From the NCBI GenBank assembly GCA_051362555.1, contig CM120640.1, positions 66,194,788 through 66,258,787 on the forward strand: DNA of 64,000 nt, written 5' to 3'. How positions within the stretch are numbered: position 1 is the first letter of the stretch; every line of letters begins with the position of its first letter. This document shows positions 5,646 to 46,832 of the stretch, in pieces. The notes under the pieces are model-generated. The model had not been told where the DNA came from. It searched no databases and saw nothing but the letters and a program-made list of their open reading frames with translations. Made by a program: the position numbers and the translations under genes. Source of the DNA: Lingula anatina (Eukaryota > Animalia > Brachiopoda).

Positions 5646-8600
5646 GAGTAACAATGATTTTACATCATGATGATTATAGTTTTTCACCCAGTCTGCTTAA
5701 CAGTTTATGACTGTTGCGTCATGTTATAAACCCAAACAACAGCTCCTTCATCCACTTCCACATGACATGAGCACCCAAGCATTGTCATTAATCAAATCTG
5801 TTTCTGCTACTTGTCCAATATTCACACTGTGCAGAAAGCAGAGACCAGTCTCTTTTTTGTAACTAGCCCCTGTGCAGTTCACAGTCCCCAGACAGGAAAT
5901 CCCGCATTCTATCCTCGAGGGCGAAGTGTTTGAGGAAAGATTGTACTCTGTAGAATTCAGGTAGACTCCACTTCTTACACAAAATGCCATCTCTCTGCTA
6001 CAGCATCCATTTTGCTGCTGGCATGGAGCGTCACACTGGATGACAGACGGGGAGACTGTGGTCACATCAACTGGTATGGGAAAGACTGATTGAAAAGAAG
6101 TAGAAGAAATTAATGACTGCAAAAAATTTTGAAATTTTGGTATATTACATAGTATTATCACTATATAATTTATAGTTTTTTTCCACAGACTTTGAAATTG
6201 TAGGCTGTGCTGATAATTTTGTATAAATAGTTTTTGTCTAAGAAAAAGTAAAGAGCCATGCAAGTATAATAAGTAGAGAGTTTCCGGTGAAGTTGGGATA
6301 CGACGGCTAGATTGTTACATATGTGCAAATGTATCCAGTAACGCGCTACTCTCTTCACGTTCCGGTAAAGTCCTGGAATGCTGGCGCTTCGCGCCATAGG
6401 TGGCGCTCATTCTAACATAATAACAATATACGGCCCCGTAGCCAGGTAGAGATTCCTTTTTTTTATGAAAAAGGAGACAAATGTTACCCAAAAGTGCAAT
6501 TTTCCCGACAAAAATGGCAGTTAGTAAGAACCAAACGATCAACCCCCGACTACGTGCCTGTTAAACCAAAACTAGCGACTCCTCTCTCTTAAAAAGTCGA
6601 AATTTGCATGAACGTACACCTGAACTATTGTAAAAAAAGTATATAAGGCATATAAATTAGCAAACATAACCTTTGATAACTATTTTCAATAATCTTCCGC
6701 ACTGGCTAGATAGGAGTGCTTGTATTCTGCAGACTAGATAGGAAGACGGTATATGAACGCAGTAAACGTCACAAGTGCGCACAAACCGATGACGTATTAA
6801 TCTAGTTGGCATATCTCACCGGCAACGGAAACTCTCTAGTGAAGTCAGATGGCCAACTAATATCATTTTATACAAATGATTGAACTAGTAGTTTGAATTT
6901 CATTAATGCTAACGGCACATTCCCAACTTTGATAACATTAATGATAAAGAAAAATTTGTATCTATATTGTCAATTTGACAACATAGGACAGAAATTCTTT
7001 TTAGCATAGTTCTAAATATAACAATATGTTTTAAGAAGAGAGATGGATGATAAATGAAAAAACATTAGTGAAAATTTTATTGTATTCCTTTGTTTTTACT
7101 GAGATGTATATTTTCTTTAACTTAAATGTTTATACAATATTTTTAACACAATTTTTATGAACACAACATCCGAGAGTTATTTCTGTCAGAAGAATGGGTG
7201 CAATATATTAATTAAAAATTGGTTATATACTTGAATCATGAATGACAAGCATATAAAATCTGATATTAATATATAAAGAAAGAGTAGAGCTACTTACTTA
7301 AAGCTGCTGAGCCTGCAGATTTGTCCACAAGAAAACAGTGTATCAGTAGGTGAACAGACAGCAACAATTTGAGATACGTAATCATCCTTTGTTTTTCTAT
7401 CATTTGTAATATATGAAATGTGCAGATCAAACAATTATTTTTCCCTAAACTTTATATTCCTGATTAATCAAAATTCACGTTTCAGTTTTTCCCTCGTTCT
7501 TGTTTTGCACCCTCTTGAGATGTAACGGCTACCTGAGTACGTAATTGGAATTGAGTACTTTATAGTCTGTGAATGTTTATTTAGATCAATTTGTCATTAA
7601 TGCTTTGACATCACAGATCAATGACGTTTTAATTGTTTTGTTTATATTGTAATTATAGCCCGAGAATAGAGTTAGCAAAATGGTTATATGTTGCTGTGGT
7701 ACCCAACAAAAAGTGGAATTAAATGTTTTGAGAAATGTCACAAGCAGTGTTTCATGTAATTATGAAAATATAGCTAGTTAATTAAGTAGACTTCCTTTAG
7801 ACTAAAACAAGTATTGATCCAATAACTTGTCAACTCCTTCCTTTTGATGATCATAGTTGAGCTTCCAAGTTTTAATCATTGGGTAAAAGTGATTCTCAGA
7901 TTATTAATCCCTTAAACCAGTTTTCTTTTTAATTATTTTGTAAGGGGGTTATGTTTTGGTTTTATTTTATAATCTCTCGGAGTCATCCGCAGCCCAAGGG
8001 CCAGAAGATCTGAAATTTCCCCATTGTTATGTCTGAAAAGGAAATTGGGACGGCTTCATTCACATGCAATGTCTATTTTCTAAATTCTATTTTCTATTCG
8101 CGGTATGTCTTATGATCACGGTCTTTGCCCTGAATATCCCGCCGCGTAATTACTGGCAGCGCGAGCCAGTTACTATAAGTTACTATAAGTAACTGGCTCG
8201 CGCTGCCAGTAATTACGCGGCGGGATATTCAGGGCACAGACCGTGATAATAAGATAGCGCGAATAGAAAATAGATTTTTAGAAAATAGACATTCCATGTG
8301 AACGAAGCCACAGCAAGTATTACAGAAACTGATCCGATCATATTGTAGTCAATGCAAATAGAGCATTTGATGATATAGATTAAGAAACAGATATTTCACT
8401 GTTTGCTGCCAGTAACGTGGTTACAGCTGCATCTGTAGTGGAGTTGAATAAGAACATGTATTTACCAAGGCATTGCTTTAATATAACACAATAGATCATT
8501 TTTTTACCTCCAGCAACTTAAGATATCTACAAATTAAACAAACACACAGTGTTATTAATAATTGAATTAGAGACTGTATTTATATAAAAAAAAAATACCT

Positions 8601-11600: not shown

Positions 11601-14600
11601 GGTGGGCATACATACAAAAATACTTCTTGTAAAGGATGATACATTTACATGTAATAATTACATCACACATATGTCTACAGTAAATTTACATTTTTATGTA
11701 CAGACACAGATGTGTCTGTACATATAGCCATCATCTGCGTCTGTCGTCGCCGCCGTCGTCGCCGTCGCCGTGCACTTTTACCGATAACACGATAAGTGGA
11801 AAACCATTTTGCCTTTTGATTTGAAACTTGCAGAACTGATGAATATTCATAATACGCAGGTCAAGTTCGAAAATCAGCATGATCGGGTCACTCTTAGGGA
11901 ATTTATGCTGTTTTTTCACTTTTTTCAACATATATGCAGCACCGATAACACGATAAGTGGAAAACCATTGTACCTTTTGACTTGAAACTTACCGAACTGA
12001 TGAATATTCATAATGTGCAGGTCAAGTTCGAAAATCGGCATGATTGGGCCATTTTTAGGGAATTTATGCTGTTTTTTCACTTTTTCAGCATATATGCAGC
12101 ACCGATAACACGATAAGTGGAAAACCATTCTACCTTTTGGCTTGAAACTTACAAAACTGATTAATATTTATAATACACAGGTCAAGTTCGAAAATCAGCA
12201 TGATTGGGTCATTTTTAGGGAATTTATGCTGTTTTTTCACTTTTTTTCAGCATATATGCAGCACCGATAACACCATAAGTGGAAAACCAATTTACCTTTT
12301 GGCTTGAAACTTGCAGAACTGATAAATATTCATAATACGCAAGTCAAGTTAAAAAATCAGCATAATTCGATTATTGTTAGGGAATTTATGCTGTTTTTTC
12401 ACTTTTTTCAGCATATATGCAGCACTGATAACACAATAAGTGGAAAACTGTTTTTTCATTTGGCTTGAAACTTACAGAACTAATGAATATTCATAATACG
12501 CAGGTCAAGTTTGAAAATCAGCAAGATCGGGCAATTTTTATGGAAGTTATCCTGTTTTTTTTTGTTGTTTTTTTTTTTTTTTTTTTTTCAATTTTTTCAG
12601 CACTTTTATAACACCGATAACATGATAAGTGTAAAAATGTTTTTCCTTTCCTTGGATTGAAATTTACAGAACTGGTGAATATTTATAATACGCAGGTCAA
12701 GTTTGAAAATTGGCATGATTGGACTATTTTTACAAAAGTAATGCTGTTTTTTTCCCTTTATTCAGCATACATGCAACACTGATAACGCATTTTAAGGAAA
12801 ACCAATCAGCCTTTTGTCTTGCAACTCACAGGAGTGATCAATCTGACCAGTATACAGATCAAGTTTGAAAATAAGCTTGATCAGTTAAGTTTTGATGAAG
12901 TTATTAGCCTTTTTGTATATAAGTGGTTTTTCTTCAGATTTAATTCTTAAGCATGTTAACAGTCTCATAACGGTACTAATTGGATATGTTAAAGTGTTGT
13001 TTTAACATTTTCTGCTTCTTAACAATATTGTTAGTTGATTATATAAAAATGACGGTAAACCTATTATCCTGCATTGTGTAATAAAGTATCAAAAATGGAA
13101 AGGAACTCATCATTGCAGTTCGTCAGATTCAATCATTTACTATGTTCAGAATCTCCAAATGGAGCTAATTGGACATTATAAATTGTTCTATTGATATTTT
13201 TCCTATGTCAACAATTTTCCTAGTTGATCATTTAAAAATGACAGTTAATTGATGATGGTTTTATGTAAAAAAGGTGTTGAAAATGGAAAGAAAATCATTT
13301 CAGTACAGTTATCTCTTGTTAACATTTTGGCATTTTGAAAGTGTGACCCTAACTTCCATGTCCTTGGAGACCTTTCCATATCACATTTTCTGAATATCCA
13401 TGATACTTTTATTTTTTTATAAAAAATTTGATGGTCATTATGCTGTTAAGTATTATGTTATATTGCATGAAAGTTAAAGAAAACCCTATTTTGGACACTG
13501 CTGCCAGGATAGCTATTAAGGGAAAACCATGTTACTTATGATAATCAACCTTACTGAAAGACTGAAGTGCAGCTTGTGTTGGAAAACCATCGTAATTGTT
13601 TTCTGTTTTGAAAGCAATGCAGTACAGTGCTATTTGGTGCAATAAATGTATATGGATAGTAGGCAGTTAATTCAGGGTTATAAAATAATTTGCTTAATTG
13701 ATTTTCAAGTTATTTCAGGGTTATAAAATAATTTGCTTAATTAATTTTCAAGTGGGTATTAAATGAGATTACATAAACACACATTGAGATTTCATTGTAA
13801 AGCCCCATCGGTTTAGCTTTCTTAACTGTGTCACATAATTAGGAATCCATGATTATTATGCAGGTAAATGTTATTTAATATGGAAAATAAGTTTACAAAA
13901 AAAATTTTGTGTAACGCTTACATTAATATGAGGTCAAGGTCAAGTGAGTTGAAACAACACTGACTCCTCTCTTGTGTTTGTTTCTTAATTTTTGTTTGGC
14001 AAAGTCTTCAAATGTATGATTTGAAGTATGGAGAACTATTGTGAGTATATATAGAACCTTTCTGTGGCAAAAAATTAACAGCAGCACTTCTTGGAAGTCT
14101 GGTTTTTGAAGTTCAAACTTTTGGACATTAAGGACAAAGAACAATGGAGACCTGAAAGTAGGTCAAGGAGGTGGAAAGCTGACATCACTTGAAAGTTGAA
14201 ATGCTGCAAGAACTTGACTCGTATATCTCCTATCTGTTCTGAAAATACGTGGTTGATACAAAATATCTCTACTAGCATCTGAAATGACCAAGAAAAGGAA
14301 TTCTTCAAAGAAAAAAGGCTACTATGCTGTGGCAAGAGGCTATCAAGTTGGTGTCTACAGGACCTGGGAAGAGACTGAGAAGCAAGTTCTAGGCTACTCT
14401 GAAAATCTTCATCAGGGATACATCTACTACTCAGGTGCCAAAAAGTTCATGACAAAGGCTGGGATTCATTCATTCAAAGTATTCGAAAATGGAAAGGAGT
14501 ACGATAACGAAATTTATGAGAAACTTCTAATGGAGGAAAAAACAAAGAGCACTCTTGACACAAGTGGAGAAAATGGAGATGCCCAAGAGGATGAGGAAAC

Positions 14601-17600
14601 ACGTGCTAAAACACAAGGTGAAACAAGTGTGAAAGAGCTCTATGAAGAGAAAAGTACTAAACCCAGGCATGAACATGAAGGGACAGAAAGGGCCTTGAGT
14701 ACCCCCATCAAACCACCAAGTAAAAGCACACCTGCGGCAACAACTACACCAAAGCAGACATTCTTGCTTAAGGCTGAATCAGTCAAGCAGAGATGGTCAG
14801 ATAATTGGACTGAGAACTTTACTTCCATAAACAATGCCCTTGTCAATTTGGAGGCCAGCCAGACAGAACTCATTAAAGTCTTACAGACAAACAATGAGAG
14901 ACATAGTACTGAGAACAAAGAAATGAGAGATACTATCAAGCAACAGGCAGAAAAGATAAACAATCTGAGACAGTGTTTCCCCTGCACTTAAATGAGCGAG
15001 GCGCCCGCCTCGATGATATTTGCAAGCGCCTCGCTGAAATTTGTCAAAAGCACCGCCTCGCTGGACTATATGGAACAACAAAGTATATTTTCACTCATGC
15101 TAACTGAAAATTATATTTATTTCTAAGCAAATATGGCATTTTCTGTTTACATACGTAATCCCATGCTTCTGAACACTTGATTTAGTAGTAACGGAAAGAC
15201 GCATGCGCGTATGCCTAAAAATAACCAGCAGTTACTATCTCCCTGTGAGTGCCTCGTTTTCGCAGTTCTGTGCGTTATTTGAAGTATAAGAAACAGAGCG
15301 AAACGAGGCAACTGTTCTTGACACCATTTAATCACGTGTCAAGAATACACTTTCTCTATCACTTCATGTTCCGAAATTCAGACCGCCTGTTGTTTGTTTT
15401 TATAGTTTACGAATATTCACTGATAAAAAAGGAGCAAATAAAGTGGACTTCGTTGATTTTATAAACTTGGAGAAGATTTTCTATTGATTTACGGGTGAGT
15501 TTTGTGAAAGCAGTAGCGTTGTAAAACTGGGTCACGTCAGTATTTCGCGTGGAAACCTATGCATTGAATATGAATTTCCATGACTGAATAGAACCATATA
15601 AATGAATAAAAGAAGAACTAAAATTGATGATAAGTGTGATTTTCATCTCTTTAATTCCGAAGCATTCATTTAACGGTGTTTGAAGTTGTTGATTATAAAT
15701 TACATCTCAAACTACGTATAACTAGTAGCGGGAGTCGCTTTGCGCTGAACGACAAGAGAGAGAACTTTTGCGGCAGTTTTATATTAGGATGAAGCGCTCC
15801 CACACGCAAAGTCAATTGACCAGTTACTTTCACAAGAATGTGAAAACGGTAAAAACAACATATTTTATCAACTTTTTGGTCAATTTAAAAATAATTCAAT
15901 GTAGTAAGCCCTTTTTCTCGTAAGTATTAAAGTAGTTAACTTTTTTTTTTTTTGAAAGTACTTCTTTTTTTTTTTTTGAAAGAGTATGTTCTATAAACTG
16001 AAAAGGACTAAACTGAGTGAATGCACAGACTGGAAAATAAATTTTGTCCAAACCTTTGTTATGTCATTACTGAATTTACTCCTCAAAACATCTAAAACAA
16101 GACAATTCAGTGCCACATAAAATGTAAAAAAAATCAGTTCTAAATACCCTAAAATGCACCAAATTGCACCTCGATTTAAAAAATTTTCCGGGGGGGCATG
16201 CCCCCGGACCCCCCTAGTATTGCTGGGATCGCGGACTGCCTACCACCTCGCAGAGCTTGAAAGCCAGGGGAAACACTGTGAGAGATACTGTCAAGCAACA
16301 AACAGAGAAGATAAACAATCTCACCCTTCAGAGTAACCTGCTGCAAACAGAGCTGAATGAAATGAAGAAAATTGTAAAAGAGAATGCAGAAAGAATTGAA
16401 AAGAAAGAACTTGATGAAACACACTCAAACTCACACCAACTCTCACAAAATCATACAAACAGTATGATTACAGATGACTTCCCCAAAAACAAGACTTATG
16501 CAGATATGGTTAAGACTACCAACACTGAAAGCCAAGCCCTACAGGGGACAAGTACTAGTATGTGGAAATCTACTGGAAAAGTTACTTCCCAAAAACACTC
16601 CCTGATACTGTCAGACTCAATATTTAGTAGGATGCACGAGACCCGCACAAAAAGTATGCTTGTAGAGCAGCAGTATGTACGTGGTGGGGTAGAAGAAATG
16701 ATAAAAGCTATCCAAGAATGTGATAAAACAGACTTTGACAGTGTTGTGCTACATACAGGGACTAATGATCTGAAATACTTTGCAGATGGCACAATGACAC
16801 CAGGGATAGCATATGATAAACTAGCATCTACAGCTAAGAAGAAGTTTACAAAGGCTTCAATCATCATGTCAAGTATTCTTCCACGGCAAGACAAGAGTTA
16901 CTATGAAATAAACAATGTCAACAGGTCAATTGAGAAAGTGTGTGAGAAACAAAAACTGAAATTTCAAAATAATGACCCAGTTGTCTGTTATAACTCTGGA
17001 AAAGTGAACAAAAGGATGTTTCATGACAATGTACACCTAAATGATAGACATGGACTCCCTCGTCTACTACTTCATACCAAACACTCACTAGGTGTACACA
17101 GATCTGGAATTCCTCCTTTCCATGAAGACAATGACTGCAACACAGCAAAGGGGCAGAACATCCCCGTCATCATACACACCCGCAGAGATGTCAAACCTGT
17201 TAATCATACCCAAGACACTTACCGCCGTCAGACATATGGAGACTCTGGACACTTACTCTCCCCAAAGTCACATCATCAACATAGAAAGTGGGGGAAAACC
17301 AATGTTTCATGGGGATACATACGCAGAAGAGAACCACAGCTATACATCCATGGCAGGCAGCCACAACATGACAGGGATGAGAGACATTGGCCATATAGCA
17401 GACAGCAAATCTTCTCAGGCACTCATTTTGACACTCGCTCCTGGGATTAAATGAGCATATGTAAACATGATAAACAAAGAACTGGAAAAGTATTAAGGAT
17501 AAGTAATGTGTATAATAAGTACTCCAAATGTCCATGCCATATTCTTATCAAGTCCAACCAACTCAGTAAGTACAAAATGTTTTAACCAATTATTACTGTA

Positions 17601-20600
17601 AAAATGTAAGTTGTTCAAATCTGAAATTGTTTAAGTTGTTGTAGGTAATCTTTACATTCATGCATATGTGCACCATTACTATCAGTGTTTAAAAAAAAAA
17701 AAAAAAAAAATTTTTTAAGTTTAATTCCAAATTAAGTGATGTCAGCAAGGATCCACTGCCTTGTTCATTAATATCAGTTTTTATATAATGAAAAAAGTAC
17801 ATTCGGATAGCATCAAAGTTGGCTCATGGAACATCCATGGAGTAGGCTGTAAGCTGGAAGATGCTGAACTAGTGAGGAAAATTTCTAGTTTTGATATATT
17901 AGCTTTAGTGGAGACCTGGTCTGATAATGATAGCAAGATAGAAATTCCAGGCTTTGTATCATACAGTAGTTGTAGAAAAAAATCAAAGAGAGCCAAGAGA
18001 AACTCAGGTGGGATTGTAGCATTTGTTAGAAAATCAGTGACTGCTGGAGTTACCAAGTTAGAAAGCAAGTGTGAAGATATTCTGATTCTAAAATTGAGCA
18101 AATTCTACTTTGGGTTTAGGCGTGATGTCATCCTTGTCACAGTCTACATAAGTCCCCCCAACTCTGTGATCAATGAAAATGCAGACCCATATGATAAACT
18201 TACAGCTGAACTTACAACAGTGTCAGCTAACTGTGATATAATTATCCAAGGGGATTTCAATGCCAGAACGAAAGTTAACTCAGACTTTATCACAGATGAC
18301 AGCACAGACTTAACCTTAATTTCTGGGGCCCATTATCTCAGTGATGCATACAACCCACCCCCTCCTAGAAACTCAATGGACTCCCAAAAATCCAATGCAT
18401 TTGGTGGAAAGCTGCTAGAGTTATGCAAAGATTGCAATTTAAGAATCTTAAATGGCCGTAAACTAGGTGATCTACTTGGCAAATATACTTGTTATCAACC
18501 AGCTGGTAACAGCGTTGTTGATTATGTCATCTGTAGTGCCACTTTGTACAGCACCATCCCATACTTTCACGTCAATGATCTGTCAATATTTTCTGACCAC
18601 GCCCTACTTGAACTTAAACTGTACTGCAAAACTACTTACAACAAACATACAAAATCAATTCAGCTGATACCAAAGCCAACTAAATTCATTTGGGAAAATA
18701 ATTCTCATATTAAATTTGTTGAGGCCCTGGGTAACATGGAAACAAAACAAAAGGTTGATTACTTTATGTCACAAGCTCTCTCCCCTGAAGAGGCATTACC
18801 CTTAGTAAATGAAATATTCACAACTGCAGCTGAAAAGGCTCTTAAATCAAGAAAATACACCTCAGTCCACCCTCGAAAAAACAAGAAAAGGGCAACATGG
18901 TACAGCAATGACTTAAAATCTCTGAGGTCCCACTTAAAAAACTTAGCAAAACTTAGGAGCAAGAAACCCTTTGACAATTCAGTCAATGCATCATACTACC
19001 AAACATTCAATCGTTATAAGAGAGGATGTAAGAAAGCAAAAAAAGAATATAAAAAAGGCCTACTTCAAAAGTTGCAATCCATGGAAAATGCAAATCCCAA
19101 ATGTTTCTGGAAAGCGGTTAAAGATTTAAATATGGAGTCTACACAAACTGAATTTATTGAACCAAGTGAATTTTATGAGTATTTTAAAAGTCTTTGTGAG
19201 GAAACTGAATCAAGTAAACACAACTTTGATAAAGACTTCAAGCTTAAAATAGAAAATAAACTAAGGCAAAGTGAAATAAATTCTCCAGACAGAACTGCAC
19301 TTGACCATGACATTAGTGCTGATGAGATCATGAGCAATATAAAAAAATTGAAAAACGGCAAATCAACAGGGGAAGACAAGGTAACCAACGAAATGATAAA
19401 ATCAGGGAAGGATTATCTTATAGATGTAATTGTAAAATTGTTCAATATCATATACAAAAGTGCTAAGTACCCATCAATATGGAACAAGGCATATATAGTC
19501 CCTATCCACAAATCTGGTGATGAATCAAATGTTAACAACTACAGGGGAATATCTATTACAAGCTGCCTCGGAAAGCTGTACAACTCGGTCCTGTTAAACA
19601 GAATTCAAGCACACGCATCCCAACAAGGGGTACCCCTACCTCATCAAACTGGGTTTAAACATGGTCATGGTACTTCAGATAATATCTTTATATTTAAGTC
19701 CATTATTACAAAATTTATGAAAGGAAAGAAAAAATTATACACATGTTTCATTGACTTTTCAAAAGCATTCGATAGTGTTTGGAGGAACGGACTACTGTTC
19801 AAACTAAGTACTCTAGGAATAAGAGGACTTATGTACAAAAACATTAAAAGCATGTATGAAAACTCCCAAGCATGTGTTAAGACAAGTAGTGGTATATCCC
19901 CGGCCTTTAATACAACACTAGGTGTAAAACAAGGTGACACATTGAGCCCGTTTCTTTTTAATATTTTTATTGATGACCTTCTAAGATCAATTGATGGCGA
20001 AAGTGCTGCAAGTCCAGATATAAACGGAATACCAATACAAGGTTTACTCTATGCTGATGACCTCATCCTTATGTCCAAGACCCCCAATGGGCTAAGGCAA
20101 AGTTTGGAAATAGTAGAAAATTTCTGTAACAAGTGGAGACTGACTGTAAATGTCACCAAAACTAAAATAGTTATTTTCAACTCAAAATCAAAAGCTCACA
20201 GTGAAAAATTTTTTCTGTATGGAAAACCAATCCAAGAGGTCAACAAATACATGTATCTAGGTCTCCTTCTAAATCGATCAGGAAGCTTTACAGAAACCAA
20301 AAATAATCTCCTACAACGTGCTACAAAGGCATTCTTCAGTTTGTCCAAGTCTCTTCCACTTCAGAGTAATGTTAACACATCCTTAAAAGAGAAATTATTT
20401 GATACCCTCATTTCCCCAATCCTTACATATTGCTCAGAGATATGGGGCTACTCGGTGTCAACGGATAACTGCCCTACAGAAAAGTTGCACTTAAAATTTT
20501 GCAAACAAATCCTTGGCCTCCATCAAAACGTATCAAACTATGGTGTATACACTGAACTTGGCCGCCTTCCCCTCTATACCAAAATACAGTTTGCATCTGT

Positions 20601-23600
20601 CAAACTATGGTGTAAAATTATTCAAATGTCTGATGCTACACTAATGAAACAAGCGTACATACAAGAGATAAATAGTTACAAGTTGCTGACACCCTATGTC
20701 CCACCCGCAGTCCACACACTCAGACCAGCTTGTATGTCATGGTCTGAGGGTATTCGAAACATCCTTTTCACATTTGGCCTTGGTGATGTGTGGCTTAGCC
20801 AGTCACCTCCAAAAAACTTCACCACAATTTTCAAACAAAGACAAACTGACCACTTTACCCAAATATGCAACAGCAAACTTCAAGCCAACAGTAAATTATC
20901 TCTCTTCCGTATACTTAACCAAAAGTGTGAAAGGGCAACTTATGTTGATAAAATAACAAATTACGACACCTTGTCAACCCTTGCTAAACTACGTCTGAGT
21001 GACCATAAACTCCACATCGAAACTGGGCGGCACACCAGGCCAAAAACTGAAAGGTGCGACAGAATCTGTCACCTGTGCACACAAGGGGTAATTGAGGATG
21101 AATACCATTTTATATTCCAATGCCCAATGTACAAAACAGACCGAGTCACCTTTTTCAGTAAAACCTCATTCCTAAAAGCTGATTCAAGGTCACCAGACAG
21201 TCAATTATGCCATGTATTTAACAGTGCCAACAAAGATACTTTAGTGTCCCTCTCCAACTTTATAATCAAATCATTCAAGAAAAGAAGTGAAGTGGTTGCT
21301 CTGCTTGGTAACTCCTAGCATATCCCTTAAAATGTCAGTGTATGGTGCCACTGTTGTGAGAAGTGACTCGGCAGTGGGACTGAACATGGCACAATATTTA
21401 TATCTGTGTAACTTATTTACTTATCTGTCTTATGTAATTGTCATTAATCGTAATTATCAATGTCATCAAACTGGCTTTGAACAGCCATGTAAACAGCTAT
21501 ATAACGGTGGTTTTAAGTTTTTAAAAAAACATATTCTTTTTGTGTAACATGTTTATACTATGTTTATGTTAAATTTATAATCACACCAAGGTTTATCTCA
21601 TTGCTTAGATAGAATATTCTATGAGTGATTTTACTAGTACTTATCTTCATTATATAAAGATGGTAGTGCACTAACTGTATTGTATCATCATTTGTATATC
21701 ATATTGTACAAGGTCATGACAATCTATGTACCAGTACAGAAATAAATTGAATTGAATTGAATTGAATTAATGCTAAAGATGAATAACAGTGCCTTATTAT
21801 TCTCAAACTCATTAGGGTTATTCATATCATGTTAGTAATTGTACAGCTAGATTAAAAGTTTGAATAGCAGCTTTATTGGTATTTTTTGTTATGTTTTATT
21901 TTACATTTTCTTTTAATTTTTTTATGCTGTTTTTTCACTTTTTTCAACATATATGCAACATTAATAACACAATATAAGAAAAACAGCTTAGCCAATTGTC
22001 ATTATACTCACAGGAGTGGTCAATCTTACAAAAATGCAGGTTGAGTTCGAAAATCAGCGTTATCGGGCCATTATTTTAGAAGTTGTACTGTTTTTTCAAA
22101 TTTCCTCAGATTCAATTCTTAGGCATGTTAACAGTCTCATTATTGAACTAATAAGATACGTAAAAGTGTTTGTTTGATATTTCCTGCATCTTTACAACAT
22201 TGTTAGTTGATTATGAAAAAATGATGGTAAACTTGTTATCATGTATTGTGTAATCAAGTGTCCAAAACGGAAATAAACTCATATCATTGCAGTTTGTCAG
22301 ATTCAATCATCCACATCTGCCATGATGACCATGATGGGAAAACCGTGTTACTTATGATTGTCAAACTTTCAAAAAAGAAACACAGGACTAAAATGCAGCC
22401 CAAGTTGGAAAAGCAGTCTAATAGGCTTCTTTTTCTGGAAGTTATACATTTTAGTGAAATATTCATTATCTTTTTGGCATATTCATTGTGGGACTCGGAG
22501 CTCCCATGGACATGAAGCCGGATGGTAATCAAATTTTCTACATGTTCATGCTATTTATAGTCAATAATCAAAAATTGGTGATAATTATTCTATAATTTAT
22601 TATGTAATGTTACATCAAAATTGACAATAATCTTTTTGCACTGCTACTGCAAACATTATGAAAAGAAAACTGTGTTATTTATTATTATATTTAACTTAAG
22701 AGTATGATTTTTAGGATTGGCATGCAGTTCAAATTAGAAAGCCAGGTCAATTGGGTTATCATTTATTATTGAATTTAATGCAATTTTGTGTGAAATTTCA
22801 TTTTTCTCATTCTGGCACTTTCTAAGTATAAACTTGAACTCTGATGGGCCTGAAGCCTTATGCTTTTACTTTCGTCGGTGTTACCTGTTGTGCAAAATTA
22901 AAATTTGATGTTGACTGTGCAGTTAAACATAATGTATTATTGCATCAGAAGTGGTAGTCTCCTATTTTGTGCATTATTGTTTTGTGCTCTTCTTAAGTTG
23001 TGACTTATGGGCCTGAAAGACCTTTGAGAGGGTCAGTCTATAAATTTCCCTTGGGTATCACTTCGCTAATTTCAGTTATAAAGTAATTTGCCTAATTGAT
23101 AGGCTACATAAAGCACACTTGTGATTTGAGATTACATAAAGCACACTTGTTGATATTTCCCTGTAAACTCCCATAGGTTAAGCTCTCTGCTAGATTAATA
23201 ATAAGGAAGCAGTGATAATTATGCAGGTAAATTTTGTTTAATATTGCAAATAAGTTTTATATATATATATATCAAACTGAAAGATTAAAAGTTTGAATAG
23301 CAGCTTCATTGGAATTATATTTACCTCTGCCAAGGAGGTTATATTTTCACCCCTGTTTGTCATCAACATAACTCAAAAAGTTATGGACCGATTTTGCTGA
23401 AATTTTCAGGAACTGTCAGAAGTGGGCCAAAGAGGACAAAAATCAATAATAATCAACAATTGCTACCTTGGCAGAGGTCTGCACTCTCGGAGTGCTTTTC
23501 TAGTTTTGTTATGTTTTCCTTTATTATTTTTTCTCAAACACTTGCATTTGTGACTTTTAACTCTCATCCGCCTGAGACTCTGACATTTCTGTTTTTCCAC

Positions 23601-26600
23601 ATAAGCAGTTGTATTGTTTTTTATGTCTTTAAACATTATGTTACTTATGTAATATTATTTTATGCACTGTCATCATTTTTCAAATATTGAGACTTACATC
23701 ATGTGAATTTGAACTCTCATGGTCCTGAAACTGTAATCTTATTGAAAGGGTAGATTGAGACCATCTTCTGGGACTTCCGGAAGACAGTCAGGTTATTAAG
23801 TTTATATTGCCTGGTATCTATTTTTTCTTCTGTTGGAAGACCATCAAAATGGAGGATGGATCAAAATAGATACTTTGGAATACTGTCAGAGAATATCTCT
23901 GGGTCCGCTCATGTTATTGACCATTTTACCTGTTGTGCATGATTATAAAATTCAGTGTTGACTGATAGTGCTATTATAAGCATTATTTATTATTGCATCA
24001 AAATTAACAAAATGACCTTTTTTGCATCTTTATTTTCTGTTTTTTTTCACTTTTTTCAGCATATATGCAGCACCGATAACACGATAAGTGGAAAACCATT
24101 TTACTTTTTGGCTTGAAACTTACAAAACTGATGAATATTCATAATACGCAGGTAAAGTTCGAAAATCAGCATGATTGGGTCTTTTTTAGGGAAGTTGTGC
24201 TTTTTTTCCACTTTTTTCAGCATATATGCAGCACCGATAACACAATAAGTGGAAAACGGTTTTACCTTTTGGTTTGAAACTTACAGAACTGATGAATATT
24301 CATAATACGCAGGTCAAGTTCGAAATTCAGCATGATCCGACCATTTTTAGGGAAGTTATGATGTTTTTTTCACTTTTTTTCAACATATATGCAATACAGA
24401 TAACGCGATAAGTGAAGAACCATTTTACCTTTTGGCTTGAAACTTACAGAACTGATGAATATCCATAATCTGCAGGTCAAGTTCAAAAATCAGCATGATC
24501 AGGCTATTTTTAGAGAAGTTGTGCTGTTTTTTCACTTTTTCCAGCTTATATGCAACACCTATTACACATGTTAAGGAAAATTGATTGGCCAATTGTCTTG
24601 AAATTCACAGGAGTGATCAGTGTTACTTAAATACAGATTAAGTTTTGAAAATAAGCTCGATTTGTTAAGTTTTGGTGAAGTTATGCATTTTTTTGTGTAT
24701 AAGTGTTTTTTCCTCAAGTTTATTTCTCAGGCATGTTAACAGTCTCATTTTTGAACTAATTAGATATGTAAAGTTGTTCTTTTGACATTTTCTGCATCTT
24801 AACAATATTGTTATTTGATCATTTAAAAATGATGGTAAACTTGTTATTGTGTATTGTGTAATAAAGTGTCAAAAATTGAAATAAACTCATATCTTTGCAG
24901 TTTGTCAGATTCAATCATTCACTATGTTCAGAATCTCCGAATGGAGCAAATTAGACATAAAATTTTTCTATTGATATTTTACCAATGTCAGCAGTTTTCC
25001 TAGTTGATCATTTAAAAATGACAGTAAATTGATTATTTTGTTTTATGTAAAAAAAGGTGTTGAAAATGGAAAGAAAATCATTTCAGTACAGTTATCTCTT
25101 GTTTACATTTTGACATTTCATGTCACATTTTCTGAAAATCCATGATACTTTTATTTTATTATTAAAATTGATGGTTATTATACTGTTAAGCATTATGTAA
25201 TATTGCATTAAAATGGATTTTGGACACTGCATGATGACCATCAAGGGAAAACCATGTTATTGATGGTACTTACTGAAAAGTTCATCTTGTGTTGGAAAGT
25301 CAGTGTGATTGTTTTCTGTTTTATAAGCAATGCAGTTCTATAGAGTGCTATTTGATGGTACTGTATGGATGGCAGTCTATGAAATTGCCCCTTGGGTGAT
25401 CACTAATTAAATTAAGGTCTATAAAGTCTTGCCTGGTAATTAATTTTCAATTGGCCATTAAATGAGATTACATAAAACACTCATTGAGATTTCCCTGTAA
25501 AGTCCCATAGGTTTAGCTCTCTTAACTGTGTCACATAATTAGGATTTGGTGATAATTATGCAGGTAAATGTTGTTTAATATTGCAAATAAATTTACAACA
25601 GAAAAAAGATTTGTGTTATGCCAACATGCTATAGATGAATAACAGTGCCTTATTTTTCTCAAACTCAGTGGGGTTATTCATATCATATTAATAGCTAGAT
25701 TAAAAGTTTGAATAGCAGTTTTATTGGATTTTTTTCAAAATTATTTTTCAAACACTTGCATGTTCAAGATGTGACTTTTAAGTCCCATCCACCAGAAGTG
25801 CTGTTCATTTTCTGTATTTACACAAGTAGTTGTATTTGTTTTCATGTCTATAAACATTATGTTATATTATTTTATGCACTGTCATCATTTTTCAAATATT
25901 GTGATTTTCATTATGTGAATTTGAACTCTCGTGGTCCTGAAACTGTAATCTTATTGCAGGGGCGGATTGAGACCATCTTCTGGGCCTTCTGGAAGACGGT
26001 CAGATTTTAATGTTTACATTGACGGGTATCTTTTTTTTTCTGTTGGAAGACCATCAAAAATGGAGGATGGATCAACAAAGATAATTTGGAATACTGTCAA
26101 AAAATATCTCTCCTGTTCACTCCTGTTTGACCATGTTATCTGTTGTTCATGATAAAAATTTAGTGTTGATTGACAGCATTATTTATTATTGCATCAAAGT
26201 TGACAAAATGACCTATTTTTGCGTCTTTATTTTCTGTTTTTTGTCTGTACATTTGACAGCTTTGCTGCCTTGTTTTTACGTTTGTGTGATAGGTAACTCT
26301 AAAATGTGAACTAGGCTCATGGTTTTAATGTTGTTCCAGCAAACACTAGCTGGCCACACAGACTATGTCCATAGTGTAGCCCTGAAGAGCCTGAGTGACC
26401 AGTGTGTGACTGGCTCTGAAGATGGCACAGTGAGGCTGTGGGGTAAGAGGGCATCTTGCAGATTTAACCATTTACCAACTGATAGAAACCTCTCCTCTCA
26501 TATCTGTTCTGGAGAATTCATTACTACACCCACATGTACAGCCAATTCTTTTTTATTCCTTGACAACTAGCTAGCTGGCTCAAACCAACTCGGTAACTTC

Positions 26601-29600
26601 ATTATCAAAAAGTAGCTTTCAGCTTCTTTAAACCAAACAATTTCATTGTAGTTTCTGCAGTTTATCATGTTATACTAGTTTCATACTTGTTAATTTATTT
26701 ATTTCTTATTACAGACCTGCGGACTCCACAAGAACCAGTTGCAGTAATTGAACCTTATTCTGAAGTGGTATGTTTCTTGAATATGCATGCACACACACAC
26801 ACACAAATACACACACACGTACTTAGACTTACTTATTTAGTAAACACCAGCAAGGAAATTATTTCAAGTCTTTAAATAGTGATAAAACATAATATGTATG
26901 TCAGCGATCTTCACCCAGGAAAAAAGGTCATTTCCCCCCATACTTTCCTTTCAGACATGTGCCAGGTCAGAGTATGGGCGCTGGATAGGTTGTGTAGCTG
27001 TGGACCCCACAGATGATTGGTTGGTAAGATGGGTTTGATCTAGCATCATAAAGGTTATTGTAATTGATCCATCAGCTTGTTAAATATCAGGACCACAGAG
27101 ATAATGGAGTTATATGTGAAATATTAAAATTTTTGGTGAAAAATCTTAAGGTCTGCATTAATTAATCAAAAAGTTCTAAATCTTTTTATGGTCCATTTCT
27201 GTATCACCACTTACACAGATTTGTGACATACATTGAATGTATGTCATAAATATGTTTAACTGGTGATTCAAATGATTGATATATAAGTATGTAAACGTAA
27301 TTAAATTGAATTAACAAATAAATTGTATTTAGATATAATTGCACATTCCAGGTGTGTGGAGGGGGCCCCAAGTTGTCCCTGTGGCACCTGCGGACATTTG
27401 CAGTCACCACAGTATTTGACACACCGGGGGCTTGCCAGCAATATACAAGTTTTTTTGAGGACACTGTAAGTAGATCACACTATATTGGCCTCTCAGGAAA
27501 TGGTGTCTAATTTCTTAACCATCAAGCTTATTCTAAATAGTAGAAGTAGCTAATCATGGACAATTCGAATCATTAGTTATTTCTTAGAGTTAAGCAGATC
27601 ATACATGCACATGCATTACTAGTTGTTATGAGATGTCCAAATTATCAGTTGACCCAATTAATTTAGTCACATTTTGCCATCAGCTTTAAAAAATATACTG
27701 AATAATATACATAGAAATACTTTCCATCATTTTCTATGGCATTAGGTTGAAAGGGGGGGGGGGGGGGGCAAATATATCTCCTGAATAGAGGAATATAGCC
27801 CCATTCTCAAATAAATATGCTCTATGTAGGTATCATAATATGGGAGGCAAACAATTTCAGTACAAGCTGAAGAAAAAATACTGCTTTATTCTTAGTTCAT
27901 AAACCATCTGATGGAATTTTTATGTACAGACACAGATGTGTCTGTACATATAGCTGTCATCTGCGTCTGTTGTCGCCGTCGCCGTCATCGCCATCGCCGT
28001 GCACTTTTACCGATAACACGATAAGTGGAAAACTGTTTTTTCTTTTGGCTTGAAACTTACAGAACTGATGAATATTCATAATACGCAGGTCAAGTTCGAA
28101 AATCAGCATGATCGGGTCACTTATAGGGAATTAATGCTGTTTTTTCACTTCTTTCAACATATATGCAAAGCTAATAACACAATATAAGAAAAACAGATAG
28201 GCCAATTGTCATTATACTCACAGGAGTAGTCAAACTAACTATAACACAGGTTGAGATCGAAAATCAGCATAATCGGGCCATTATTTTAGAAGTTATGCTG
28301 TTTTTTCACATTTCCTCAGATTCAATTGTTAGGCATGTTAACAGTCTCATTATTGAACTAATAAGATACGTAAAAGTGTTTGTTTGACATTTCCTGCATC
28401 TTAATAACATTGTTAGTTGATTATGTAAAAATGATGGTAAACTTGTTATTGTGTATTACGTTATAAAGTGTCAAAAATGGAAATAAACAAATATCATTGC
28501 AGTTTGTCAGATTCAATCATCTACTATATTCATTGTCTCAGAATGGAGGAAATTGGACATTTAACACCGTTCTATTGATATTTTTCCCATCTCATCAATT
28601 TTCTTAGTTGATCATATACAAATGGTAGAAAACTGTTTATTTTGTTTTATGTTAAAAAAGTGTTTTAAAAATGGAAGTAAACCCATTGCAGAACAGTGCT
28701 GTCTTGTTTCAGCATATATGCAGCACCGATAACACGATAAGTGGAAAACCATTTTACCTTTTCCCTTGAAACTTATAAAACTGATGAATATTCATAATAC
28801 GCAGGTCAAGTTCGAAAATCAGCATGATCGGGTCATTTTTAGGGAAGTTATGCTGTTTTTCACTTTTTTCACCATAAATGCAATACTGATAACATGATAA
28901 GTGAAAAATCATTTTACCTTTTGGCTTGAAACTTGCAGAACTAATGAATATTCATATTACGCAGGTCAAGTTTGAAAATCAGCATGATCGGGTCATTTTT
29001 AGGGTAGTTATGCTGTTTTTTCACTTTTTTCAGCATATATGCAGCACCGATAACACGATAAGTGGAAAACGATTTTACCTTTTGGTTTCAAACTTACAGA
29101 ACTGATGAATATTCATAATACACAGGTCAAGTTTGAAAATCAGCACGATCGGGTCATTTTTAGGGAAGTAATGCTGTTTTTTCACTTTTTTCAGCATGTA
29201 TGCAACACCTTTGTGCTATATGATGGTACTGTATGGATGGCAGTCTATAGAATTGTCCCTTGGGTGATCACTAATTAAATGAAGGTCTATAAAGTCACTT
29301 GCCTACTCATTAATTTTCAATTGGCCATTAAATGATATTACATAAAACACTCCTTGAGATTTCCCTGTAAAGTCCCATAGGTTTAGCTCTCTTAACTGTG
29401 TCACAAAATTAGGATTTGGTGATAATTGTGCAGATAAATGGTGTTAAACATTGAAAATAAATTTACAACAAAAAGAATGTGTTATGCCAACATGCTATAG
29501 ATGAATAACAGTGCTTTATTTTTCTCAAACTTGGTGGGGTTATTAATATCAAGTTAATACAGCTAGATTAAAAGTTTGAATAGCAGCTTTATTGGAATTT

Positions 29601-31642: not shown

Positions 31643-31697
31643 CTCCTGCAGCCTCACAGGAGAAATGTGCATAGAACATCTCAGTAAGCTAGCCACC

Positions 31698-31918
31698 ACA
31701 GCCTGGATAACCAGGGGCAAACACTGCCTGGATAACCCACTGGCAGGACAGGCACAGCCAGGATAACCCGCAGGGGCAGGCACTGCCTGGATAACCCACT
31801 GGCAGGACAGGCACAGCCAGGATAACCCGCAGGGGCAGGCACTGCCTGGATAACCCACTGGCAGGACAGGCAGAGCCTGGATAACCTGCAGGGGCAGTCT
31901 TGTGCCTGGATAACCCAT
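31698..31918 (+). repeat. GC-rich dimeric minisatellite in the THOC6 3' UTR (59-bp higher-order unit)
   Basis: Eight GGATAACC cores separated by alternating spacers (about 28 and 31 bp period), starting about 55 nt after the stop codon. Confidence 0.85.
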
Positions 31919-45812: not shown

Positions 45813-46832
45813 ATGAATGAGACTGAGCCGACGGTAGATTTATCAAACATCAGTTCAAATAATACTGGAGTAGAGGTCGGATTGGATGAAAATGTAGATT
45901 CCAAAGTGCTTGTTAATTTTGTTGGTGGAGTTTTGGCTTTCTTCATAGCTTTGGTTGGTCTCATTCTGAACACGACATCTTTTGTCGTGTATCGAAATTT
46001 TAAGGTCAAAAATTCATCGACTTTTTTGCTCAGTTGCTTGGCAGTTGCTGATAATTTGTATCTCCTTTCGCATACTTTTCTTGGCAGCATCCCGTCCATA
46101 TTCTCCTACATTGAGCTAATACCAGGGACCCTTCCCTTTATTGCCAAACATTCACGAGTGATTTGGTCGCTCAACAACTGGCTGGTTCTTATACCGATTT
46201 GGATGTGCGTTCTTGTTACCGTCGACCGCTACCGTCTGATTTGCTCGTCAGTTTCAGAGCTCATGAATACCCCGCCATTGAAGTTGTGGGTGGGGTGGGT
46301 AGTAGTCGTCGTTATTGGCTCTTTCATTAGCGTAATACCGAAGTATTTCTTCGTTGTTTCAGTTGGATTTCAGTCGTGTTCGTTGAACAAGACCTATCCA
46401 TTTTGCTTGAAACCACCCGTTGTCCGTTTTCCCGAGCATAAGTTCTACTGGCTTGCTTTTCACTTTCTTTTTTATTTTTTTTACCCTTTTTTAATCATAA
46501 CGAAATGCAATGTGCGAATAATACGCAAACTGCGTGAAATATCTAAACGCCGTGAAGGGCTTTCCGTGCAAAAATTATCCATTCACAAAGAAATGACAAA
46601 AATTGCTATTTTGATCGCCATCTCTTCACTGGTAATCAATCTAGTGTATTGTTGTTCTTTAATTATTGGGTTCTATCCTGATATATTGCCACAGAATGTT
46701 GTACAGAACATGCTGTTTTATTTCCAATTGCTTAGTCTCTTAGGAGCGCTAAACTCTTCTGTGAATTTTTTCATTTATGGATTGTTCGGTAGAACGTTTC
46801 GATGCACTCTAAAATCAATGTGTTGCTGCTGA
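45813..46832 (+). CDS. Intronless class A (rhodopsin-like) GPCR, peptide-receptor-like (FMRFamide/sex-peptide receptor-like expansion), 339 aa
   Basis: Seven hydrophobic segments and N-terminal N-glycosylation sequons. TM1 GLILN, TM2 LAVADNLYL, TM3 TVDRY, TM7 NSSVNFFIY, helix 8 FR and a C-terminal CCC. Confidence 0.88.
   Translation: MNETEPTVDLSNISSNNTGVEVGLDENVDSKVLVNFVGGVLAFFIALVGLILNTTSFVVYRNFKVKNSSTFLLSCLAVADNLYLLSHTFLGSIPSIFSYIELIPGTLPFIAKHSRVIWSLNNWLVLIPIWMCVLVTVDRYRLICSSVSELMNTPPLKLWVGWVVVVVIGSFISVIPKYFFVVSVGFQSCSLNKTYPFCLKPPVVRFPEHKFYWLAFHFLFYFFYPFLIITKCNVRIIRKLREISKRREGLSVQKLSIHKEMTKIAILIAISSLVINLVYCCSLIIGFYPDILPQNVVQNMLFYFQLLSLLGALNSSVNFFIYGLFGRTFRCTLKSMCCC

What the first reader, a model, noticed from the sequence alone, without database searches (positions are those of the whole stretch)
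14284..17450. LINE ORF1 fusing an RNase H1 hybrid-binding domain to a coiled coil and an SGNH esterase
Seen: the ORF track lists two separate ORFs (14284 and 16257). Removing the 14971-16278 insertion plus one TGAGA fuses them in frame into a 617-aa ORF1. Residues ~12-55 ([34 protein letters not shown]) follow the Y-A-V-x2-G-x3-G-V-Y-x2-W pattern. The C-terminal half keeps all four SGNH blocks (SDS, G, GTND, DNVH). The partner ORF2 is intact but has no RNase H domain. Known: that N-terminal pattern is the hybrid-binding domain of eukaryotic RNase H1 (Cauli_VI/viroplasmin family), which binds RNA:DNA hybrids and dsRNA. Esterase ORF1s are described in CR1/L2/RTEX elements. I do not recall a described LINE ORF1 with this domain, though I cannot exclude it. 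Inference: the element may have captured a non-catalytic hybrid reader to chaperone or shield its target-primed reverse-transcription intermediate, compete with host RNase H1, or target R-loops. The basic KK pair of the host domain is replaced here (HQGY), so specificity may differ.
Basis: partly seen in the sequence, partly recalled or inferred. Interest (0 to 1): 0.85.

Follow-up and report, generated by a model that had tools for sequence, protein, structure and literature searches.

The report
LINE coat protein with RNase-H1 reader
A jumping gene of a brachiopod has, at the front of its RNA-coating protein, the RNA:DNA-gripping domain of the host enzyme RNase H1, which likely serves as its RNA-binding part; related proteins in other animals carry the same domain, some with the whole RNase H1 enzyme attached, a design not found in the papers searched.

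Summary
Confirmed. A 6.5-kb RTEX-type LINE (13924-21769) has an ORF1 split by a 1308-bp TIR element with a 5-bp target duplication. An uninterrupted 617-aa sibling exists (Lingula anatina XP_013418390, 10 differences), and a contig of another study also lacks the insert. ORF1 is: RNase H1 hybrid-binding domain (HBD; Pfam Cauli_VI 40 bits, cut-off 21; 0.6-0.8 A to the human HBD), a 35-aa extension, a coiled coil predicted to dimerise, and an SGNH esterase with intact triad, of the ZfL2-1 ORF1p type. It is no one-off: eight other 50%-identity clusters (one from amphioxus) join HBD and SGNH, and 27 multi-copy relatives carry HBD plus a complete eukaryote-type RNase H domain before coiled coil and esterase; they share the Lingula extension. 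Their link to an ORF2 is inferred, not seen. Schneider 2013 found no structured RNA-binding domain in any esterase ORF1, so this is an exception. Best reading: the HBD is the RNA-duplex/hybrid-binding module of the coat protein, probably left from a captured RNase H1. Shielding the hybrid is less likely, and the lost KK pair is common among HBDs. No binding shown; Repbase not searchable.

The parts
13924..21769 (+). Whole LINE copy (about 6.5 kb without the insert), inserted in a kb-scale tandem repeat; only AT (13922-13923, 21770-21771) is shared at the ends
   Evidence: Left and right flanks are continuous in empty paralogous sites near 25626 and 29492 of the same window
13924..14283 (+). 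5' untranslated region (inferred)
   Evidence: Between the insertion point and the ATG; in-frame stops upstream; contig of run X1 covers it from 14011
14284..14319 (+). ORF1 residues 1-12, basic tail (6 K/R, no acidic residue)
14320..14448 (+). ORF1 residues 13-55, RNase H1 hybrid-binding domain (Cauli_VI); Y14 and W28 kept, FKK replaced by HQG
   Evidence: Pfam 40.3 bits; 1QHK E 2e-6; 3BSU rmsd 0.6-0.8 A
14449..14556 (+). ORF1 residues 56-91, extension (beta hairpin and helix in the model) shared with the RNase H-bearing relatives
   Evidence: pLDDT 93-97; 28.9-bit gain against a mean of 2.4 and a maximum of 13.9 in 167 other HBDs
14557..14760 (+). ORF1 residues 92-159, acidic disordered linker, where the relatives have the RNase H domain
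   Evidence: pLDDT under 50
14761..14970 (+). ORF1 coiled coil, first part (residues 160-229), with the first unit of a 42-bp duplication at 14924-14965
14971..16278 (.). 1308-bp non-autonomous DNA transposon with 14-bp TIRs and 5-bp target duplication; breaks ORF1 in this copy; abundant in the genome
   Evidence: depth 345-1720 against 21.5 for the LINE and many different flanks in reads
16279..16283 (+). Second copy of the 5-bp target duplication
16284..16415 (+). ORF1 coiled coil, second part (residues 230-273)
16593..17090 (+). ORF1 SGNH esterase (residues 333-498), triad S341-D477-H480
17091..17450 (+). ORF1 basic disordered tail (residues 499-617) and stop
17788..21318 (+). ORF2, 1176 aa, intact: APE endonuclease, RT with RTEX-like motifs, C-terminal Cys/His finger, no RNase H
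21319..21769 (+). 3' untranslated region with AATAAA at 21741 and an (AATTG)n tail at 21745-21768

Best explanation
This is a broken copy of an RTEX-type LINE whose ORF1 protein joins the hybrid-binding domain of RNase H1 to a coiled coil and an SGNH esterase, and the domain likely serves as the protein's RNA-binding module, gripping duplex parts of the element's RNA and the RNA:cDNA hybrid of reverse transcription. Shown: the architecture, the uninterrupted sibling, the fold, the relatives. Predicted: the coiled coil forms a parallel dimer, so each coat unit would present two HBDs and two basic tails, making up by avidity for the loss of the two lysines. Inferred: the module fills the role that RRM domains or arginine-rich peptides have in other ORF1 proteins (packaging, strand annealing and exchange), while the esterase targets membranes as in ZfL2-1. 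Inferred origin: an ancestor fused a host RNase H1 coding sequence (HBD, linker, nuclease) to the front of ORF1; relatives that keep the nuclease would remove their own RNA template after first-strand synthesis; the Lingula lineage lost the nuclease, kept the HBD and relies on host RNase H (about 55% for this order, 45% for HBD first).
For: HBD identity by profile and fold. Y14 and W28 are kept; W43A abolishes hybrid binding in the human domain while K59A/K60A costs about tenfold (PMC6846478 passages). Esterase ORF1 proteins have no other structured RNA-binding domain and isolated coiled coil and esterase do not bind RNA (PMC3905857 section 13); RTEX ORF1s have no arginine-rich motif and about 150-350 unannotated residues before the coiled coil (its Table S1). 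The HBD sits at the N-terminus of 9 of 79 SGNH-bearing proteins among the 150 best hits. Between the window copy and P0001, 0 changes fall in residues 1-91 and 2 of 10 in the folded 58% of the protein (p 0.016). Coiled-coil dimer: score 0.57, best of 3 controls 0.00, runs agree in at least 97% of contacts, pLDDT at least 84; the mark was reached by 21 of 30 solved pairs and 0 of 23 single chains in microbes, 17 of 29 and 0 of 30 in eukaryotes. Origin: P0002 aligns with human RNase H1 in one stretch from HBD to nuclease (E 8e-39, against 1e-18 for E. coli type); 25 of 27 relatives keep all four acidic residues; the extension is shared.
Against: No binding was measured. F58-K59-K60 is replaced by HQG, and deleting FKK abolishes binding in the human domain, so this HBD may bind weakly. 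No RNA read covered the HBD in three RNA runs read to 6, 6 and 25%. The coiled-coil pass may come from likeness to solved coiled coils, and a trimer was not tested. On the esterase tree the HBD-bearing proteins are not one clade (p-AU 6e-7) and the Lingula esterase groups with nine proteins without HBD (95/84), while the RNase H-bearing ones form one clade: this fits module swapping and also a late gain of the nuclease. No significant RNase H remnant in P0001 (101 of 500 shuffles score as high). HBD trees leave P0001 unresolved. No locus was obtained that shows an ORF2 behind any relative outside Lingula.
Confidence: 0.5

Rival explanations
1. The HBD is a folded leftover of a lost RNase H1 fusion and no longer binds nucleic acid in this lineage; it stays for structural reasons or by drift.
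For: FKK replaced by HQG; long branch of the Lingula HBD; a nuclease-bearing form with the same extension exists; one of three variants in the X1 contig changes residue 12.
Against: Eight other divergent clusters keep an HBD without nuclease, all with the Trp; no change in residues 1-91 between two copies; QG, KG and KS occur in 82 of 187 other HBDs.
Confidence: 0.15
2. The HBD steers the element to R-loops or other RNA:DNA hybrids in the genome, so that it inserts in transcribed repeats.
For: HBDs read hybrids; this copy sits in a tandem-repeat array; some relatives add a PHD finger, a chromatin reader (P0145, P0222).
Against: One insertion site only; repeat arrays fill much of the window; no genome was available to test site bias.
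Confidence: 0.13
3. The HBD masks duplex RNA of the element from host sensors (Dicer, ADAR, piRNA entry), as a counter-defence.
For: HBD-type domains bind dsRNA and the homologous part of caulimovirus P6 belongs to a silencing suppressor (both recalled); ORF1 coats the RNA in many copies (established).
Against: No evidence here of duplex-rich element RNA or of suppression; the family is close to silent in the RNA runs laid.
Confidence: 0.12
4. The HBD shields the RNA:cDNA intermediate from host RNase H or competes with it.
For: A non-catalytic HBD could occupy hybrids (follows); premature cutting ahead of the RT would truncate inserts (inference).
Against: Host RNase H2 is needed for L1 and ZfL2-2 retrotransposition and RNase H1 partly rescues its loss (PMC6068448); the closest N-terminal relatives carry an intact nuclease beside the HBD; the altered FKK predicts weaker binding than the host enzyme.
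Confidence: 0.1

Closest known systems
Esterase-type (type IV) ORF1p of RTEX, CR1 and L2 elements; ZfL2-1 ORF1p, PDB 4C1B (Schneider et al. 2013, PMC3905857: passages, sections 12 and 13, part 1 of 2 of the supplement)
   Same: Coiled coil before an SGNH esterase with intact triad; 4C1B is the best solved match of the family profile (E 5e-21); the 114-residue coiled coil at 160-273 mirrors RTEX-2_NV (151-264) and RTEX-3_NV (148-261).
   Different: Carries a structured nucleic-acid-binding domain, which that paper found in none of the esterase ORF1ps of Repbase; the dimer is predicted parallel, the ZfL2-1 one is antiparallel.
Eukaryotic RNase H1 (human HBD 3BSU, yeast 1QHK, human enzyme 6VRD)
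   Same: Same N-terminal fold with Tyr and Trp kept; relatives such as P0002 have HBD, linker and nuclease in the host order.
   Different: The Lingula protein has no nuclease, FKK is HQG, a 35-residue extension follows, and the domain is fused to a coiled coil and an esterase.
RNase H-bearing retrotransposons (some non-LTR clades, plant L1 with archaeal-type RNase H, Tat LTR elements; PMC4408406, PMC2881922, PMC6068448: passages)
   Same: Capture of a cellular RNase H by a retroelement, thought to remove the RNA template.
   Different: There the nuclease is in the RT polyprotein (placement in ORF2 partly recalled) and no HBD is described in the passages seen; here ORF2 has none, and the relatives have HBD plus nuclease in an ORF1-like protein.
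Caulimovirus P6/TAV (viroplasmin)
   Same: A reverse-transcribing element's accessory protein with the same small domain (Pfam family name; the rest recalled).
   Different: No other likeness seen; the domain is nearer to cellular and element HBDs in all searches.

Membership tests
RNase H1 hybrid-binding domain (PF01693) | Profile score above the curated cut-off | tested here: met
   40.3 bits against 21
RNase H1 hybrid-binding domain (PF01693) | Three-strand, two-helix fold like 3BSU/1QHK | tested here: met
   Top Foldseek hits 3BSU, rmsd 0.6-0.8 A, TM by target 0.83-0.90, probability 1.00, E only 0.01-0.04; top VIA hit 1QHK, Z 3.6, rmsd 2.3 A, 46 residues
RNase H1 hybrid-binding domain (PF01693) | Binding residue W43 (human numbering) | tested here: met
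   W28; kept in 9 of 9 HBD-SGNH proteins
RNase H1 hybrid-binding domain (PF01693) | Binding residues F58-K59-K60 | tested here: not met
   H43-Q44-G45; but KK is in only 48 of 187 other HBDs
RNase H1 hybrid-binding domain (PF01693) | Binds RNA:DNA hybrid | not testable with these tools
   needs a binding assay
RNase H1 enzyme | Catalytic RNase H domain after the HBD | tested here: not met
   None in P0001 by Pfam or by a profile of the relatives' nuclease; the region is linker and coiled coil in the model. Met in P0002-type relatives
SGNH esterase of type IV ORF1p | Ser, Gly, Asn, Asp-x-x-His blocks and SGNH fold | tested here: met
   Pfam score itself under the cut-off (27.6 against 32.9)
SGNH esterase of type IV ORF1p | Coiled coil before the esterase | tested here: met
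   helix 160-273, heptad pattern, predicted dimer
SGNH esterase of type IV ORF1p | No structured RNA-binding domain (as described in PMC3905857) | tested here: not met
   HBD at 13-55
SGNH esterase of type IV ORF1p | Esterase activity and liposome binding | not testable with these tools
   needs assays
RTEX clade | RT groups with RTEX references in a tree | tested here: inconclusive
   No tree with references was built. By eye the RT motifs match RTEX-10_CGi and a mussel element listed beside RTEX-23_SK, and differ from Proto2 and RTE rows, in the alignment supplement of PMC10294476
RTEX clade | APE plus RT without RNase H, esterase ORF1 | tested here: met
LINEs with RNase H in ORF2 | RNase H domain after the RT | tested here: not met
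   no Pfam RNase H match at E up to 1 and no RNase H among solved matches
hAT5-like non-autonomous DNA transposon (label recalled) | CAG-starting TIRs with a 5-bp target duplication | tested here: inconclusive
   both features seen; no transposase or reference library to confirm the superfamily

The most novel reading that the evidence does not exclude
A class of animal LINEs has moved RNase H1 into the coat protein: one branch carries the whole active host-type enzyme (HBD plus nuclease) in ORF1 and so clears its own RNA template with a many-copy coat instead of an ORF2 domain, and several branches, the Lingula element among them, keep only the HBD as a duplex-reading RNA-binding module, a new type of ORF1 RNA-binding domain beside RRM, zinc knuckle and arginine-rich peptide.
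Probability: 0.5. Interest if true: 0.8.

Novelty: new variant of a known kind. Interest (0 to 1): 0.66.

Why it matters
How esterase-type ORF1 proteins hold RNA was left open by the paper that solved their structure, which found no structured RNA-binding domain in any of them. Here is one, in several lineages from a brachiopod to amphioxus. How LINEs without RNase H get rid of their RNA template is another open point; the relatives give a natural pair, ORF1 with and without a host-type nuclease, with a direct test: the nuclease-bearing element should not need host RNase H2, the Lingula type should. Natural HBD variants on a dimeric stalk could also serve as R-loop probes. The window copy itself is broken and ordinary as an insertion.

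Tried and rejected
Own genome: none held, so copy number, dN/dS and site bias were not measured. Run search listed no RNA holder. Reads were laid on 13910-15400 only; ORF2 and the 3' half of ORF1 were not examined for expression. Loci of relatives: P0002 in genome contigs, 33 pattern matches, none confirmed; alignment A1 in metagenome, viral and genome contigs returned 80 loci each, all matching only the HBD/RNase H part at 24-46% identity, used as outgroups; ORF2 and P0013 in viral contigs, none; alignment A2 had no searchable stretch. RNase H remnant: the WSDNW pentapeptide at 171-175 is identical in P0002 and aligns at the right place, but scores -1.0 bits, 101 of 500 shuffles as high (32 of 500 with the C-terminal half of the profile): not counted. 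One origin of all HBD-bearing ORF1s on the esterase tree: rejected (one search is confounded by fragments, one search kept 37 rows: 9 HBD-only, 5 of 17 nuclease-bearing, 23 others of 400 aa or more). HBD trees (56 and 80 columns, 45 and 26 sampled outgroup rows) do not place P0001. A bacterial origin of P0002, suggested by its record name: rejected, its nuclease is of the eukaryotic type and close relatives lie on Mb-size contigs in many broken copies. Rfam: two weak matches under the gathering score, taken as chance. Whole-protein fold searches reported only the esterase. The Atlas did not hold ORF2. Literature: ten searches listed no paper on an HBD or RNase H in a LINE ORF1; 'Cauli_VI' was searched in joined form and had no occurrence in the listed rows. 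The structure paper of the human HBD was not held. Repbase reports and most subscription journals are not searched; 17 of 33 supplements of PMC10294476 or more, including its curated libraries, were not searched and may hold such elements.


Full report
1. The observation. The window has two frames at 14284 and in the 16200s and an intact 1176-aa ORF at 17788-21318. Between the two frames lies a 1308-bp insert, 14971-16278, with perfect 14-bp terminal inverted repeats and TGAGA on both sides. The halves give 229 and 388 codons. A search with the 5' half among longer proteins returned 1 hit among 1551 candidates: P0001, 617 aa, XP_013418390.1 of Lingula anatina, which differs from the halves at 5 and 5 residues. 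In DNA run X1, of a study other than the likely source, one contig covers 14011-14965 and goes on into the 3' half without the insert. The joined ORF1 is therefore the real gene of the family. The insert sits at the junction of a 42-bp duplication in the coiled coil and is far more abundant than the LINE (depth 345-1720 against 21.5; many different flanks).

2. The element. The flanks join up in two empty paralogous sites in the same window, which sets the ends at about 13924 and 21769 with at most AT duplicated. The 3' end has AATAAA and an (AATTG)n tail. ORF2 has endonuclease and RT matches and no RNase H. Its RT motifs match by eye RTEX-10_CGi and a mussel element listed beside RTEX-23_SK, not Proto2 or RTE rows, in the alignment supplement of PMC10294476 (passages and supplement searches seen); no tree was built, so RTEX is a motif-level call. 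The coiled coil (160-273) mirrors those of RTEX-2_NV and RTEX-3_NV in Table S1 of PMC3905857.

3. The ORF1 protein. Residues 13-55 are a Cauli_VI domain (40.3 bits, cut-off 21), match yeast 1QHK by sequence (E 2e-6) and human 3BSU by fold (rmsd 0.6-0.8 A over 44-46 residues; the wide search ranks 1QHK first at a low Z of 3.6). The full model has three confident parts: 11-91, a helix 160-273 and the esterase 333-498, with disordered linkers and tail. The esterase has the SGNH fold (Z 19.8), S341, D477 and H480 are invariant or nearly so in 36 relatives, and the family profile's best solved match is the ZfL2-1 ORF1p esterase (E 5e-21). Two copies of 155-278 are predicted to form a parallel coiled coil (0.57 against 0.00 for the best of 3 controls; contacts agree at 97% or more; pLDDT 84 or more; mark reached by 21 of 30 solved pairs and 0 of 23 single chains in microbes, 17 of 29 and 0 of 30 in eukaryotes; the pass may be from likeness to solved coiled coils). 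Of the human binding residues, W43 is kept as W28 and F58-K59-K60 reads H43-Q44-G45. In the human domain W43A and the FKK deletion abolish hybrid binding and K59A/K60A costs about tenfold (PMC6846478 passages). KK stands in only 48 of 187 other HBDs of my sample, KS in 45, KG in 31, QG in 6, so the change hints at weaker binding, not at a special specificity.

4. Relatives, type one: HBD and esterase without nuclease. The full-library search gave 375 hits at E up to 0.001, of which 150 were listed; 79 carry the esterase, 80 an HBD and 9 both, P0001 included. Pfam confirms the HBD above cut-off in all 8 others and the esterase at E up to 0.01 in 6 of 8; the other two score 44-45 bits with my profile. 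One is named, from Branchiostoma lanceolatum, with a PHD finger and C-terminal knuckles; the rest lie on unnamed contigs of 0.9-7.2 kb. The Atlas has a 75-member eukaryotic cluster with Cauli_VI in all members, possibly this protein's own.

5. Relatives, type two: with the nuclease. P0002 (2 hits among 6524 candidates) has HBD, RNase H, coiled coil, esterase and an Arg/Asp/Tyr tail. A search with it gave 29 hits, 27 of this kind and 2 LTR polyproteins; 13 of the 27 carry all three Pfam labels. They occur as many whole and broken copies on Mb-size contigs and on 5-7.65-kb collapsed contigs, the size of a LINE; the three named records are filed under lucinid-clam symbionts and are most likely host DNA. 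The nuclease is of the eukaryotic type: one continuous match to human RNase H1 from HBD to nuclease (E 8e-39), outside the bacterial group in a tree, with all four acidic residues in 25 of 27. The Lingula N-terminus is tied to this type by the extension behind the HBD: probability 96% over 78 columns, and a gain of 28.9 bits against a mean of 2.4 and a maximum of 13.9 in 167 other HBDs. I could not fetch a locus that shows an ORF2 behind any relative. Esterases of this kind also occur in Penelope, LTR and Ngaro elements (PMC5408684 passages; scan notes, untested), so 'LINE ORF1' is shown for Lingula only.

6. History. On the esterase tree the HBD-bearing proteins are not one clade (p-AU 6e-7); type two is one clade (100/100); the Lingula esterase groups with nine HBD-less proteins (95/84). 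The N-terminal module has thus been swapped between lineages or lost often, as known for ORF1 (PMC4120745 passages). One HBD tree joins type two with five type-one proteins (98/88) and leaves P0001 unplaced; with the extension P0001 falls in a weaker group (90/82) that also holds three outsiders. A WSDNW motif shared with the nuclease is not significant. Capture of the whole RNase H1 with later loss of the nuclease is the simpler source of the host-like order in type two, but a late gain is not excluded.

7. Selection and expression. Between the window copy and P0001, none of 10 changes is in residues 1-91 and 2 are in the folded 58% (p 0.016); the X1 contig has two silent changes in the HBD and one replacement at residue 12. 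These numbers are small. Three RNA runs, read to 6, 6 and 25%, gave no read over 13910-14609 and about two in the linker, while the insert was covered: the family is close to silent in those samples, whose tissues are not given.

8. Mechanism. Esterase ORF1 proteins lack RRM domains, and their coiled coil and esterase alone do not bind RNA; CR1 types use an arginine-rich peptide, RTEX types have none listed (PMC3905857 sections 12, 13 and Table S1). The HBD with its basic tail, doubled on a coiled coil, is the best candidate for that missing function (0.5). LINEs without RNase H need host RNase H2 (PMC6068448 abstract and passages), and clades with their own RNase H are thought to use it to remove the template (PMC2881922 passages); this makes sense of type two and speaks against shielding (0.1). 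A leftover (0.15), R-loop targeting (0.13) and masking of duplex RNA (0.12) remain open.

9. Novelty. Schneider et al. state that no esterase ORF1p in Repbase had a structured RNA-binding domain. Ten searches of the held library and passages of PMC4120745, PMC13343379, PMC11203168, PMC10294476, PMC6338049, PMC4408406 and PMC5603734 showed no HBD or RNase H in a LINE ORF1; the scan's own notes had no such finding. Repbase notes and most subscription journals could not be searched, and the Pfam label is on the public protein record. Interest 0.66.

Noticed in passing
P0002-P0028 (no window coordinates): Records named as proteins of Candidatus Thiodiazotropha or a Lucinoma symbiont are most likely host retroelement proteins filed in bacterial MAGs; they carry a eukaryote-type RNase H1 with HBD.
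   Followed up: partly
P0145, P0222: HBD followed by a PHD finger before coiled coil and esterase; P0145 (amphioxus) also ends in zinc knuckles.
   Followed up: partly
P0163, P0239, P0237, P0102, P0103, P0112: Other partners of the same esterase: an Impact-type UPF0029 domain behind it (P0163, P0239), a protein kinase behind it (P0237), a UPF0547 zinc ribbon in front (P0102, P0103, P0112).
   Followed up: no
P0195, P0228, P0193: N-terminal HBD with a coiled coil but no esterase found; P0195 ends in a region that looks by eye like another ORF1 type; possibly HBD on non-esterase ORF1s.
   Followed up: no
window 14971-16278: Abundant non-autonomous TIR element with a 5-bp duplication, present in RNA reads with many different flanks; hAT5-like by recall.
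   Followed up: partly
window 14924-14965 and 16279-16321: A 42-bp (two-heptad) tandem duplication inside the ORF1 coiled coil; the insert sits at its junction.
   Followed up: yes
window 11780-12560, 24041-24694, 28703-29209, 34663-35451: Arrays of a 161-bp unit inside a larger repeat of 1-2 kb that recurs at least four times; the LINE is inserted in one copy.
   Followed up: partly
window 45813-46832 (+): Single-exon 339-aa rhodopsin-family GPCR (7tm_1, E 1e-14).
   Followed up: no
window 5751-6314 (-): Stop-free frame with a weak PAN domain match (E 9e-4, under cut-off), probably an exon of a host gene.
   Followed up: no
window 33776-34490, 51641-51897, 31697-31917: Tandem arrays of 146, 75 and 59 bp.
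   Followed up: no
window 17451-17787: 337-bp spacer between ORF1 and ORF2 with a long A run near 17690-17710.
   Followed up: no
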